Source of the DNA: a virus
IMG/VR virus record: IMGVR_UViG_3300046692_000130
Span: 30,595-94,594 of that record
Length of the DNA stretch: 64,000 nucleotides
Reading direction: 5' to 3' (one strand)
The position numbers and the translations under genes are program-made. Below the pieces are notes generated by a model, which saw only the letters and a program-made list of their open reading frames with translations, did not search any database and was not told the origin of the DNA. Below, piece by piece: positions 14,583-17,894 of the stretch (position 1 is its first letter; the number at the start of each line of letters is the position of its first letter).

Positions 14583-14618
14583 GCCCATCGTCCCTCACAC
14601 GGATGGTGGGCTTCTTTT
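14583..14618 (+). terminator. Intrinsic terminator
   Basis: GCCCATCGTCC..GGATGGTGGGC followed by TTCTTTT. Confidence 0.65.
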
Positions 14619-14635
14619 CCCGTTTAGGAGCCATT

Positions 14636-14893
14636 TTGTCAAAGCTTGAACTCGTCCAACCCACAACCCCAACCCCCAAACCAGACGACCATCTACTGAC
14701 CATGGATGAAGTCGCTACCATGCTAGGCGTCAGCATCAGCTTCGTGAAGAATCACTCGACACGCGTCAAGCCATTCATCCCTTCAGTGAAGTGGGGTGAC
14801 GAAGGAACACGGTCGACGCGCCGGTACCGCAAAGCCGACATCATGAAGTTCATCGAAGACCACTTGGAGAACCGGCCTCGCAAGACGGCATAG
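14636..14893 (+). CDS. xis: Excisionase / HTH_17 recombination directionality factor
   Basis: LLTMDEVATMLGVS...RYRKADI; directly upstream of integrase; TTG after AGGAG. Confidence 0.75.
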   Translation: MSKLELVQPTTPTPKPDDHLLTMDEVATMLGVSISFVKNHSTRVKPFIPSVKWGDEGTRSTRRYRKADIMKFIEDHLENRPRKTA

Positions 14894-14946: not shown

Positions 14947-16158
14947 ATGACCAGAGCACGATTCCAAGAAGGATCGCTCCAGATCAAGGGCAAGGGCGCG
15001 AAGGCTGAGTACTTCACGCGGATCCGTGTCTATGACGACATAACTGGGAAGTCCACCCAGCCACGCATCTCGCTCGGCCTCGTCTCCAAGATGAGCAAGC
15101 GCGAAGCCCTGAAGAAGAGGGCAGAGATCATCGGAGAACGTCTTCACCAGTTGCCGAAGTCTGCGCCGACTGCCTCCATGCGTGGATCCACCACACTTGA
15201 GAACTTCTACCGTGAGCGCTTCCTGATCATGAAGTCTCATTGGAGCCAAGCCCAGCGCGACAGCTTCGCATACATCATGGACAGCTTCGTCCTGCCCCGG
15301 TTCGGCAAGTATGCCATCAGCGACATCGACAAGGTTCTGGTGCAGAGTCTTCTCAACTCTCTTGAGGAAAAGTACAGCAAGAGCACACTGACCCACGTAC
15401 GCACCAAGATGGTCGAAGTCTTCGAAGAGGCTGTCGAGCAGGACTACGCAGTAAAGAACCCCGCCGCGAAGACCAAGATCCCGGCTGGAGCGCGCCTACC
15501 AGAGCGGCCCGTCCTGACGTCTGAATGGCTCATGCAGATCATCGCCAAGGTCACCGACGCCCGGGACAAGGCAGTGTTCATGGTGGCCACCTTCTGCGCC
15601 CTACGTACCAGTGAGGCGTTCGGTCTTCCATGGGGCAACTTCCACCACGATGAAGCGACCGGCACCGGCTGGTTCCTGATCGACCAGATCGCGTACCGAG
15701 GCAAGCGCTACAAGCGCACCAAGAACGACGCCAGCAAGGCCCGGGTGCATATCAGCAAGAAGACGCTGGCGGCAATCCTCCAGTGGCAGAAGGAGTGCAA
15801 AGACACGAGTCCTGACGCTCTGATGTTCCCCAGCACGAACAAGAATGGCCGGTCGAAGAAAGGCGCGCCTATGTACCCACCTACGTGGCTCCAGAAGCGC
15901 CTACAACCGATTGCTGACTCTCTGGGTATCCCATTCAAGGTCAACTTCAGGGCGACCCGTAGGACGGCCATTACGCTGGTACAGGAGCAAGGATCCTCAC
16001 TGGCTTCGGCTCAGGGTATGGCTCGGCATGCATCGCCCAAGTCGACGTCCGAGATCTACACACAGATCGTGCCAGAGAACGTGAAGAAGGCAGTCAACGA
16101 CTATGAAGAGATGGTGTTTGCTGCGAAGCCTAAAGCCAAACTCACCCGAGTGAAATAG
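14947..16158 (+). CDS. int: Tyrosine integrase
   Basis: N-terminal RFQEGSL arm domain; LRTSE, TKN, RATRR, ARH and IYT catalytic motifs. Confidence 0.93.
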   Translation: MTRARFQEGSLQIKGKGAKAEYFTRIRVYDDITGKSTQPRISLGLVSKMSKREALKKRAEIIGERLHQLPKSAPTASMRGSTTLENFYRERFLIMKSHWSQAQRDSFAYIMDSFVLPRFGKYAISDIDKVLVQSLLNSLEEKYSKSTLTHVRTKMVEVFEEAVEQDYAVKNPAAKTKIPAGARLPERPVLTSEWLMQIIAKVTDARDKAVFMVATFCALRTSEAFGLPWGNFHHDEATGTGWFLIDQIAYRGKRYKRTKNDASKARVHISKKTLAAILQWQKECKDTSPDALMFPSTNKNGRSKKGAPMYPPTWLQKRLQPIADSLGIPFKVNFRATRRTAITLVQEQGSSLASAQGMARHASPKSTSEIYTQIVPENVKKAVNDYEEMVFAAKPKAKLTRVK

Positions 16159-16178
16159 AGCAACCAGATCTGTAGCAG

Positions 16179-16203
16179 AGGGTCACCTTCGGGTGGCCTT
16201 TTC
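16179..16203 (+). terminator. Intrinsic terminator after int
   Basis: AGGGTCACC-TTCG-GGTGGCCTT followed by a T-run. Confidence 0.75.
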
Positions 16204-16216
16204 TGTTGCCTAAATC

Positions 16217-16404
16217 GTGGCACAACAGTGGCACAATAAGGAGCACAATGGGGTACTTAGAGCACTTATAGCACTCAAAAACCCCAGTAAATACGCTATG
16301 CACCACGAATCGAACTGCCTTACAAGCAGAATTTCTGTGGCTGGAACCGCCTTAATTTGCAGTAAGATACAAAAATTGTGTGGCACAAAACGGCACAATA
16401 AGGA
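16217..16404. other. Putative attP: GGCACAA arm-type repeats flanking core CTGCCTTACAAGCAG (16315-16329)
   Basis: GTGGCACAA at 16217, 16228, 16380 and CGGCACAA at 16391; central 13 bp identical to the tRNA-Val anticodon arm. Confidence 0.7.
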
Positions 16405-16411
16405 AGTAAAC

Positions 16412-16488
16412 GGGCGGTTAGCTCAGTTGGTTAGAGCGGGTGCCTTACAAGCACTAGGTCGGGGGTTCGAATCCCTCACTGCCCACCA
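16412..16488 (+). tRNA. tRNA-Val(TAC)
   Basis: Full cloverleaf: GGGCGGT/ACTGCCC acceptor, CTTACAA anticodon loop, TTCGAAT T-loop, encoded CCA. Confidence 0.96.
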
Positions 16489-16768
16489 CAAACACCCCCG
16501 CCCCGCCCCCATGGCGACACACTGGGATCTCCTGAAAATAAAGTTCTCTGAGAGTGAAGGCTTGGGAACTGCTACGCCCGAGTGAAATAGGCGTGTCCGG
16601 TGTGATTTCTGTATCTTACTGATTTTAATTAACTTATGGGACACAAGTAGTATTCGCATGTCATTGCAAAAGAATGCACTTGTAGGAATCAAGAACGGTA
16701 TGGGATACTCGCTGCCATCTCACGGGCCGCGCTTCTAAATTGAGCTTTACAGAAGGGCACCAACTCTC

Positions 16769-17617
16769 ATGAATCGTAGATCGTTCCTTACATCGGCAGG
16801 TGCTACTGCAGCCTGTCTTGCGACTGCTGGCGGGTCTACCTCCCGCAAGCTATTTGCCCAAGATGTTGACCCCGGCCTCCTCAATGCTTGTGTCGATAAC
16901 AACGCAATTGCTGCGGCCAACATGTACTACAACTCTGCAGGGGCCGGTGACTTCTACGGACTCGCATGGGCGAACTCAACCCTCGCACAGCATTGCAGGG
17001 ATACCGGAGTTGATGCCGCCTTCAACCAAACAGCCTTATGGCTCTCACCGGGTCAACTCAACCCAAGCCAAGTCGATGTAGCAGGGGTCACGGCCAACAT
17101 ACAACGGTTCTGCCCTGATCTTCAGGTGTCAGATATGCAGGACATCTTCAATCGGCTCCCGACTGATCCCGACTCGATTGCTTCAGGTCTTGCAACCGTG
17201 CAACAGTATGGCCTTTCCTCGATGCTAGATTCCTCCGCTGCTGGTTATTATGCGAAGGCAGGCTACCTCTCAGGTAACGGCGAACCCACTCCTATTGCAT
17301 ACAAGGGAACTCGCACTCCCTCATATCCCCGCGTCATCAACAAGGTTCATCGTCCGCAGATGAAGCCACATCTCCAGAAAGCGATGTACGCCTTTCGTCC
17401 TTTCATGACGATTACTCCAGAAGGTGGCGCACCACCTCACAAGCCGTATACCTGTGAGAGCGATAACAGGATGCAAGCGGCGTTCGGTACGTTCACATTC
17501 ATGGTCACCATAGTCTGTATGGCTGGTTGGGTTACAGGGCTGGTATGTGGCCCGGTCTTCGGTATAATCTCAGGCGTCTGGCTGATCGGTCATATCGCAG
17601 TTTGTGGCGGCGTATAA
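16769..17617 (+). CDS. Tat-exported protein with hydrophobic Cys-containing C-terminal hairpin (bacteriocin precursor-like moron)
   Basis: MNRRSFL twin-arginine signal; C-terminal ~55 aa hydrophobic with 4 Cys. Confidence 0.65.
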   Translation: MNRRSFLTSAGATAACLATAGGSTSRKLFAQDVDPGLLNACVDNNAIAAANMYYNSAGAGDFYGLAWANSTLAQHCRDTGVDAAFNQTALWLSPGQLNPSQVDVAGVTANIQRFCPDLQVSDMQDIFNRLPTDPDSIASGLATVQQYGLSSMLDSSAAGYYAKAGYLSGNGEPTPIAYKGTRTPSYPRVINKVHRPQMKPHLQKAMYAFRPFMTITPEGGAPPHKPYTCESDNRMQAAFGTFTFMVTIVCMAGWVTGLVCGPVFGIISGVWLIGHIAVCGGV

Positions 17618-17626
17618 GGAGAGTCT

Positions 17627-17845
17627 ATGGTCACTTTAGCGAACTTCGTAGCGCATCACGCTTTCTGGGTCAATGTGTGCATGGTCACGTTGATCATTGC
17701 CAATACCATCGGGATAACTCTGTACAAGAAGAGGCACTCCAACCAACTGCCACAGGGGAAGACAAAGGCCATCCTCATCATTGGATATGGCCTCGCTGCC
17801 GTCTTCGGTTGCTTTGTTGTAGGTGTCCTGTCGGCGCGCGGCTGA
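17627..17845 (+). CDS. Small two-TM membrane protein (possible immunity protein)
   Basis: AAGGAG RBS; two TM helices separated by a basic loop. Confidence 0.6.
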   Translation: MVTLANFVAHHAFWVNVCMVTLIIANTIGITLYKKRHSNQLPQGKTKAILIIGYGLAAVFGCFVVGVLSARG

Positions 17846-17854
17846 TTTCAGGCA

Positions 17855-17894
17855 AGAAAATGCCCCTTAGGATTGATCTCCTAAGGGGCTAATT
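17855..17894. terminator. Terminator between convergent arms
   Basis: GCCCCTTAGGA-loop-TCCTAAGGGGC with A/T runs on both sides. Confidence 0.75.

What the first reader, a model, noticed from the sequence alone, without database searches (positions are those of the whole stretch)
16217..16488. attP with an anticodon-arm core plus a complete replacement tRNA-Val: possible 'break and replace' integration
Seen: after int and its terminator, GGCACAA direct repeats (16217, 16228, 16380, 16391) bracket CTGCCTTACAAGCAG (16315-16329). Its central 13 bp, TGCCTTACAAGCA, equal the anticodon arm of the intact tRNA-Val(TAC) at 16412-16488. The core is not followed by a tRNA 3' half, and phage genes lie on both sides. 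Established: many tyrosine integrases cross over in tRNA anticodon loops and normally restore the gene by carrying its 3' half in attP. Inference: this phage breaks the host tRNA-Val gene and supplies a whole substitute ~80 bp downstream. I see no clear promoter for it, so it may be expressed from the host tRNA promoter only after integration. Its flanks differ from the core (GG/CT versus AC/GA), which could stop it acting as a second att site.
Basis: partly seen in the sequence, partly recalled or inferred. Interest (0 to 1): 0.82.

Follow-up and report, generated by a model that had tools for sequence, protein, structure and literature searches.

The report
Phage attP that breaks tRNA-Val
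This soil phage's integration site would cut the host's valine tRNA gene without repairing it, and the phage carries a complete spare copy right next to the site; this strategy was described in 2024 as tRNA-dependent lysogeny, so this is a well-supported new example, apparently in a phage of Acidobacteria, not a new mechanism.

Summary
Window 16217-16404 is a complete attP. Arm-type repeats lie on both sides of a 15-bp core (16315-16329). The core equals the anticodon stem-loop of Acidobacteriaceae tRNA-Val(UAC). No tRNA 3' half follows it. A complete tRNA-Val(UAC) gene (16412-16488) starts 8 nt after the second arm.

Relatives of the integrase (55-64% identical) sit at tRNA-Val(UAC). Most restore the gene: the 47-kb element in strain KBS 89 carries tRNA positions 27-77. 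One metagenomic relative, L036, is caught integrated in the break form. There the host tRNA-Val stops at the end of the same 15-bp core. It is followed by a 49-nt spacer, the arm repeats and a complete element-borne tRNA-Val. That is the window's layout.

Both spare tRNAs have altered anticodon stems.

The mechanism is already published as tRNA-dependent lysogeny (Guerrero-Bustamante and Hatfull 2024, PMC10865867). This scan has also noted the same kind in at least 129 other genomes.

Not shown: a lysogen of this phage, its host, or how the spare tRNA is expressed.

Verdict: a new member of a known kind, of moderate to low interest.

The parts
14603..14893 (+). Excisionase / recombination-directionality-factor-like helix-turn-helix gene (96 aa)
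   Evidence: PHROG 66 'excisionase and transcriptional regulator', E 2.5e-7. Pfam HTH_17 scores 25.5 bits, just under its cut-off of 27.
14947..16158 (+). Tyrosine integrase (403 aa)
   Evidence: PHROG 1 integrase, E 1.6e-48. Pfam Phage_integrase and Phage_int_M. R220, K259, R335, R338, H361 and Y371 are invariant in 27 homologues; I read these as the catalytic set.
16172..16209 (+). Terminator-like hairpin after int
   Evidence: -23.5 kcal/mol, z -4.5. A hairpin of the same kind follows int in all relatives read. The simple terminator scan did not call it.
16217..16249 (+). P-arm: two strong and one weaker arm-type repeat (GGCACAA units)
   Evidence: This is the same position and orientation relative to the core as the arm repeats of the KBS 89 element, about 73-75 nt from the core.
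16315..16329 (+). attP common core. It equals the inner 4 bp of the anticodon stem plus the 7-nt loop of host-type tRNA-Val(UAC). The crossover is presumed to fall in the loop.
   Evidence: It is identical to the anticodon arm of the host tRNAs. The L036 host/element junction falls at its last base.
16330..16379 (+). 50-nt spacer that stands where a tRNA 3' half would be in a gene-restoring attP
   Evidence: No tRNA is called here. A simulated attL gives no hybrid tRNA. There is only weak residual likeness to the tRNA 3' part: 74% over 31 nt including the 13 identical bases (D1).
16380..16404 (+). P'-arm: two arm-type repeats
   Evidence: L036 has the equivalent repeats 49 nt from its core.
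16412..16488 (+). Complete phage tRNA-Val(UAC), the presumed replacement for the broken host gene
   Evidence: ARAGORN and Rfam tRNA at 72.6 bits. It matches the host-type tRNA at 71 of 77 positions. Four of the six differences are the two outer base pairs of the anticodon stem, changed in a compensating way.

Best explanation
Window 16217-16404 is the attP of a temperate phage, probably of Acidobacteriaceae, whose genome is over 94 kb. The tyrosine integrase (14947-16158) binds the arm repeats on both sides and recombines the 15-bp core (16315-16329) with the anticodon stem-loop of the host tRNA-Val(UAC) gene. attP carries neither half of the tRNA beyond the core, so integration splits the host gene and neither junction is a tRNA. 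The complete phage tRNA-Val(UAC) gene starts 8 nt beyond the P' arm, on the same strand as the core. In the prophage it would begin about 125 nt after the start of the truncated host gene, behind the host tRNA promoter, and would take over GUA decoding. This is tRNA-dependent lysogeny. Shown here: the anatomy, the match to host tRNA genes, the family's use of tRNA-Val(UAC), and one integrated relative with the same break-and-replace junction. Inferred: that this phage integrates there, that the spare tRNA is needed for lysogen survival, that it is read from the host promoter, and that its altered anticodon stem keeps the integrase off it.
For: (1) The arm-core-arm anatomy is as described. It matches the attP rebuilt from the two ends of the 47-kb KBS 89 element. 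There, arm repeats with the same orientation relative to the tRNA lie about 71 and 75 nt from the anticodon arm. (2) Integrase relatives at 55-64% identity sit about 120 nt from tRNA-Val(UAC) in L002, L003, L026, L033/L034 and L035. KBS 89 has a 51-nt direct repeat equal to tRNA positions 27-77, so the family crosses over in or near the anticodon arm. (3) The 15-mer is present in those host tRNAs, once per genome, in 22 of 121 sampled Acidobacteriaceae genomes. (4) L036 is integrated in the break form. In order it has int, a hairpin, a complete tRNA-Val(UAC), arm repeats, 49 nt, and the core joined to host tRNA positions 1-42 with no 3' half. Beyond that lie a host promoter, tRNA-Cys, tRNA-Gly and a histidine kinase. 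(5) Simulated recombination with the KBS 89 attB leaves only the phage tRNA at attL and no tRNA at attR. (6) tRNA-Val(UAC) is single-copy in KBS 89; the next best match there is tRNA-Val(GAC). (7) The phage-type anticodon stem was not found in any of the 121 genomes searched, which argues against the whole tRNA being the site of homology. (8) The other two tRNAs of the contig (Asn, Trp) lie 31 kb away; only tRNA-Val abuts attP. (9) The mechanism has been shown experimentally in actinobacteriophages (PMC10865867).
Against: No lysogen of this phage, and no attL or attR carrying its own sequence, was found. The break-type attL pattern was absent from 401 Acidobacteriaceae genomes and from IMG/VR. 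The host is inferred only from tRNA and integrase relatives. The phage tRNA keeps 13 of the 15 core bases, including the whole loop, so it might still act as a weak secondary site. L036 is a 3-kb metagenomic contig with a partial int that is only 55% identical, and its int lies on the other side of attP. No promoter evidence exists either way beyond a consensus scan.
Confidence: 0.78

Rival explanations
1. The intact tRNA-Val gene itself is the attP. The phage would recombine with a host tRNA-Val of matching sequence and leave whole genes at both junctions. The 15-mer would be a relic of an older site.
For: Some phages carry whole tRNA genes within att homology (my own knowledge of HP1; not checked here). 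The tRNA shares 13 nt, including the whole loop, with the core, and the second arm lies only 8 nt upstream of it.
Against: There are no arm repeats downstream of the tRNA. In the family the arms lie 50-75 nt from the core on both sides, which fits 16315-16329 and not the tRNA. The phage-type anticodon stem was found in 0 of 121 sampled host genomes, against 22 with the host type. L036 shows the junction at the separate core, not in the element's tRNA.
Confidence: 0.07
2. The tRNA-Val has nothing to do with integration. It would be a codon-supply or anti-defence tRNA of a large phage that happens to lie next to attP, and the host would tolerate losing its tRNA-Val(UAC) or have another copy.
For: The contig carries two further tRNAs. 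GTA is used slightly more in the phage than in KBS 89 loci (12.6 versus 9.8 per 1000 codons in crude ORF sets). The replication module includes RNA-repair genes.
Against: The anticodon is the same as that of the gene to be broken. The gene abuts the P' arm on the same strand as the core. The same arm-to-tRNA adjacency recurs in L036 with a different int placement. tRNA-Val(UAC) is single-copy in KBS 89 and in the 22 matching genomes. The two roles do not exclude each other.
Confidence: 0.08
3. The attP is a decayed, non-functional remnant: a gene-restoring site that lost its tRNA 3' half, in a phage that no longer integrates.
For: 16330-16346 keeps a faint likeness to the tRNA 3' part (D1). 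No lysogen was found.
Against: The int ORF is intact, with residues I read as the catalytic set invariant in the family. The arm repeats on the two sides are still identical over 13 nt. The core is perfect. L036 shows that the short-core form does integrate.
Confidence: 0.05

Closest known systems
tRNA-dependent lysogeny of actinobacteriophages (Fionnbharth K4, Cluster L, Cain K6, Gaia X, Gordonia CQ2/DL; Guerrero-Bustamante and Hatfull 2024, PMC10865867)
   Same: A tyrosine integrase with arm-type sites flanking a short common core (8-17 bp there, 15 bp here) in a host tRNA gene. The tRNA is not rebuilt. The phage encodes a tRNA with the same anticodon. Close relatives of the same integrase family rebuild the gene instead. 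In Gaia the tRNA lies next to int and attP is inverted relative to a relative's, as here.
   Different: The host phylum differs (Acidobacteriota inferred, not Actinobacteria), the target is tRNA-Val(UAC), and the phage is much larger. No similarity of this integrase to theirs was tested. The Fionnbharth tRNA lies elsewhere in the genome and has its own demonstrated promoter. Here it abuts the P' arm, has no recognisable promoter, and would land behind the host promoter. Nothing here is experimental.
Gene-restoring relatives of the same integrase family, for example the 47-kb element at tRNA-Val(UAC) of Acidobacteriaceae bacterium KBS 89 (L002/L009)
   Same: The integrase is 61% identical. The target gene and crossover region are the same, as are the hairpin after int and the paired arm repeats in the same orientation relative to the tRNA on both sides of the core.
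   Different: Its attP carries tRNA positions 27-77 and rebuilds the gene, with no tRNA of its own nearby. Its int lies on the other side of attP. Its core-to-P'-arm distance is about 71 nt, against 50 nt in the window.
Bioinformatic reports outside Actinobacteria: Lj965 prophage of Lactobacillus johnsonii (cited in PMC10865867) and Lo5R7ANS-like prophages in tRNA-Leu(UAG) of Sinorhizobium meliloti (PMC11476347)
   Same: Prophage insertion in the central part of a tRNA gene that inactivates it, with a prophage-borne tRNA of the same kind.
   Different: The phyla, tRNAs and phage types differ. Those cases were seen as prophages, whereas here the free attP form is seen together with one integrated relative.

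Membership tests
tRNA-dependent lysogeny | Tyrosine integrase with an attP of arm-type sites flanking a core | tested here: met
   The integrase is called. The layout matches the KBS 89 attP. That the integrase binds the repeats is inferred.
tRNA-dependent lysogeny | attB overlaps a host tRNA gene | tested here: inconclusive
   The core is identical to the anticodon arm of tRNA-Val(UAC) in relatives' hosts and in 22 of 121 Acidobacteriaceae genomes. Integrase relatives are integrated in that gene. No junction of this phage itself was seen.
tRNA-dependent lysogeny | The common core is too short to rebuild the tRNA at attL or attR | tested here: met
   The core is 15 bp and no tRNA half lies beside it. 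A simulated attL and attR hold no hybrid tRNA. L036 shows such a broken junction in nature.
tRNA-dependent lysogeny | [quoted passage not shown] | tested here: met
   tRNA-Val(TAC) at 16412-16488, 72.6 bits, with an encoded CCA end.
tRNA-dependent lysogeny | The host tRNA is single-copy or essential | tested here: inconclusive
   It is single-copy in the stand-in host KBS 89, where the other Val tRNA found is GAC. The 22 matching genomes have one match each. The true host is unknown.
tRNA-dependent lysogeny | The phage tRNA is required for viable lysogens | not testable with these tools
   This needs a tRNA deletion, or int-attP plasmids with and without the tRNA, as in PMC10865867.
Gene-restoring tRNA attP (anticodon-loop class) | attP carries the tRNA from the crossover to the 3' end, so that attL is a whole gene | tested here: not met
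   16330-16379 is not a tRNA 3' half. The feature is met in the KBS 89 relative.

The most novel reading that the evidence does not exclude
The spare tRNA-Val may be promoterless and switched on mainly by integration. In that case it is placed so that the conserved host tRNA-Val promoter (TTGCAT, 17 nt, TACACT) reads through the truncated host stump into it. Its anticodon stem would have been recoded by compensating changes so that the phage's own integrase does not treat it as a second att site. That would couple expression of the tRNA to integration.
Probability: 0.3. Interest if true: 0.5.

Novelty: new member of a known kind. Interest (0 to 1): 0.33.

Why it matters
It extends tRNA-dependent lysogeny, shown experimentally only in actinobacteriophages, to a large soil phage that most likely infects Acidobacteriaceae, a phylum with very few characterised temperate phages. 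One integrase family here holds both gene-restoring and gene-breaking members at the same tRNA. That makes the family a clean comparison for asking how one form turns into the other. In practice, an int-attP-tRNA cassette of about 2 kb could serve as an integration vector for Acidobacteria, which lack genetic tools. It does not change what is known about the mechanism.

Tried and rejected
- A search of IMG/VR with the integrase alone found no relative. With a 27-sequence alignment it found only L006 (55% identical, no tRNA or arm repeats read downstream) and one distant hit.
- INPHARED phages matched the 2.4-kb region only at the level of the tRNA, at 77-84% identity.
- Patterns for 'core, then 45-75 nt, then the arm end' and for 'arm end, then the tRNA-Val 5' end' gave no hit in IMG/VR. 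The first pattern also gave none in 401 Acidobacteriaceae genomes. No second free-phage copy and no complete lysogen were therefore found.
The contigs of the closest integrases (80% and 67% identical, both short) could not be read.
Reads from the source sample could not be checked for attL or attR joints.
- The idea that the window is an integrated junction was rejected: phage replication genes lie to the right and tail genes to the left.
- The idea that int's orientation relative to the core is abnormal was rejected. L020-L022, L024, L025 and L032 have int on the same side and strand relative to a tRNA 3' part.
- Reading the core on the reverse strand as a tRNA-Tyr fragment was rejected, because no tRNA was called there.
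- I looked for a shared origin of the 50-nt spacer in the window and L036. The alignment shows no clear likeness.

Full report
**What is there**

The window is the last 64 kb of a 94.6-kb linear IMG/VR virus record, estimated 77% complete. Around the finding, on the + strand, lie these features:
- an excisionase-like helix-turn-helix gene (14603-14893);
- a 403-aa tyrosine integrase (14947-16158);
- a strong hairpin (16172-16209; -23.5 kcal/mol, z -4.5);
- two strong and one weaker copy of a GGCACAA-type repeat (16217-16249);
- 65 nt further on, the 15-mer CTGCCTTACAAGCAG (16315-16329);
- 50 nt further on, two more copies of the repeat (16380-16404);
- 7 nt further on, a complete tRNA-Val(TAC) gene (16412-16488).

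The central 13 nt of the 15-mer occur exactly twice in the window, the second time in the tRNA's anticodon arm. A 13-nt block of the repeat is identical at 16230 and 16392. Nothing tRNA-like is called at or after the 15-mer.

Tail-type genes lie to the left. A replication and nucleotide-metabolism module lies to the right: ThyA, RNR, a UvsX-like recombinase, ligase, primase-helicase and RNA ligases. This is therefore the unintegrated form of the phage, and the region is its attP.

**Relatives**

The integrase has 97 homologues; the full-length ones are 50-80% identical. Loci could be fetched for about 25 of them.

- **Gene-restoring group at tRNA-Val(UAC).** L002 (Acidobacteriaceae bacterium KBS 89), L003, L026, L033/L034 and L035 have int, the hairpin, two arm repeats, then about 35 nt and a complete tRNA-Val(UAC) pointing towards int.
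- **The KBS 89 element.** The whole tRNA is at contig 2, 659579-659655. A perfect copy of tRNA positions 27-77 lies 47 kb away. This element therefore carries the anticodon arm and the whole 3' part, and it rebuilds the gene.
- **Arm repeats on both sides.** Next to the displaced copy, inside the KBS 89 element, stands a second pair of the same arm repeats, 74 nt from the anticodon arm. The family's attP is thus arm, about 75 nt, anticodon arm, about 71 nt, arm, with all repeats in one orientation relative to the tRNA.
- **The window matches this layout.** It has the same arrangement and orientation around 16315-16329, with gaps of 73 and 50 nt.
- **The repeats track the integrase.** The repeat sequence differs from element to element but is the same on both sides within an element. 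This is what arm-type sites matched to each integrase would look like.
- **Other targets.** Other branches of the family use tRNA-Arg genes (L018, L019, L027, L029, L031).
- **Position of int.** Several loci (L020-L022, L024, L025, L032) have int on the same side and strand relative to the tRNA part as the window does. The window's int placement is a normal variant.

**The target**

Written in the sense of the tRNA, every host tRNA-Val(UAC) in these loci contains the window's 15-mer as the inner four pairs of the anticodon stem plus the loop. A degenerate 31-nt pattern that accepts either the host-type or the phage-type stem matched 22 of 121 sampled Acidobacteriaceae genomes. Each had one match, and all were host-type.

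**The integrated break form**

L036 is a 3-kb metagenomic contig whose partial int is 55% identical. It reads as follows:
- the end of int and the hairpin;
- a complete tRNA-Val(UAC) at 662-738;
- arm repeats at 753-776, then 49 nt;
- at 826-868, the 15-mer joined to host-type tRNA-Val positions 1-42, with no 3' half.

Beyond it lie a promoter-like TTGCAT, 17 nt, TACACT that is conserved upstream of all five host tRNA-Val genes. After that come tRNA-Cys, tRNA-Gly and a histidine kinase.

Aligned in the tRNA sense, L036 and the window share the order core, about 50 nt, arm repeats, 7-12 nt, complete tRNA. In L036 int lies beyond the tRNA. In the window it lies on the other side of the core, so the break form occurs with both int placements.

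**Consequences of integration**

I simulated recombination of the window's attP with the KBS 89 attB. The result is an attL in which only the phage tRNA is called, starting 125 nt after the start of the host stump, and an attR with no tRNA.

In KBS 89, tRNA-Val(UAC) is single-copy and the next best match is tRNA-Val(GAC). GTA makes up about 1% of codons in crude ORF sets of both phage and stand-in host. Losing the gene should therefore be costly, and the spare copy should compensate.

**The spare tRNA**

It matches the commonest host-type sequence at 71 of 77 positions. Four of the six differences are compensating changes in the two outer pairs of the anticodon stem. The L036 spare tRNA has 12 differences, six of them inside the anticodon stem-loop, including two loop positions.

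This is compatible with selection against recognition by the element's own integrase. Anticodon stems vary readily, however, so the support is weak.

Neither spare tRNA is preceded by the host promoter motif; arm repeats stand there instead. No sigma-70-like site was found. Reading from the host promoter after integration is therefore plausible but untested.

**Comparison with what is known**

Guerrero-Bustamante and Hatfull (2024, PMC10865867) described exactly this behaviour as tRNA-dependent lysogeny:
- a short core of 8-17 bp in a tRNA gene;
- no reconstruction of the gene;
- a phage tRNA of the same anticodon that is required for viable lysogens;
- sister phages that rebuild the gene;
- repeated independent origins.

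In Gaia the tRNA lies next to int and attP is inverted. The authors expected the behaviour outside Actinobacteria and cited Lj965. Lo5R7ANS-like prophages of S. meliloti were later reported. This scan has itself noted the same kind in at least 129 other genomes, though not in Acidobacteria.

The finding is therefore a new member of a known kind. It is notable mainly for the phylum, for the tRNA abutting the P' arm, and for restoring and breaking forms lying side by side in one integrase family.

**Limits**

- No lysogen of this phage was found, and its host is unknown.
- Two tools that could have shown junction reads or the closest relatives' contigs were unavailable.
- Integrase binding to the repeats, the crossover position within the core, expression of the tRNA and its necessity are all inferred.

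Noticed in passing
window 16145-16158 and 16577-16590: The last 14 nt of int, including its stop codon, are repeated exactly 432 nt downstream, after the tRNA. The likeness does not extend upstream. The two copies bracket the hairpin, attP and tRNA as one block. This may be the scar of a cassette exchange between related phages.
   Followed up: partly
window 16360-16376 and 16605-16621: A 17-nt inverted repeat (16 of 17 complementary) brackets the P' arm, the tRNA and 116 nt beyond it (I4). It could be a long-range RNA stem for processing the tRNA out of a longer transcript, or the ends of a captured cassette. I saw no obvious counterpart when reading L036 by eye.
   Followed up: partly
G000 contig 15426-15639 (31 kb left of the window's tRNA, outside the window): The phage has two further tRNA genes, Asn(GTT) and Trp(CCA), side by side and far from attP.
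   Followed up: no
window 16315-16329 versus 16440-16454: The core and the tRNA's anticodon arm are direct repeats 125 bp apart. Recombination between them would delete the P' arm and the tRNA 5' half, leaving a core followed by a tRNA 3' half. The altered outer stem pairs may limit this.
   Followed up: no
window 16330-16379; L002 11301-11366; L036 777-825: The distance from the core to the P' arm is about 71 nt in the gene-restoring KBS 89 element but 50 and 49 nt in the two break forms. The difference of about 21 bp is two helical turns, so the phasing of arm and core would be kept.
   Followed up: partly
L024 4270-4500: The tRNA-Arg 3' part after this int is followed, 36 nt on, by arm repeats of a different sequence type. 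This suggests two different elements stacked in tandem at one tRNA-Arg gene.
   Followed up: no
L002, L003, L026, L033, L036, upstream of the host tRNA-Val: A promoter-like TTGCAT (TTGCGT in L036), 17 nt, TACACT is conserved about 25-30 nt before the host tRNA-Val(UAC) start in all five host loci.
   Followed up: partly
window 16769-17892: Just beyond attP lies a 282-aa ORF with a Tat signal (Pfam TAT_signal, 20 bits, below its cut-off) and a small ORF after it. Neither has a PHROG match. It looks like an att-adjacent accessory gene, which another note of this scan also flagged.
   Followed up: no
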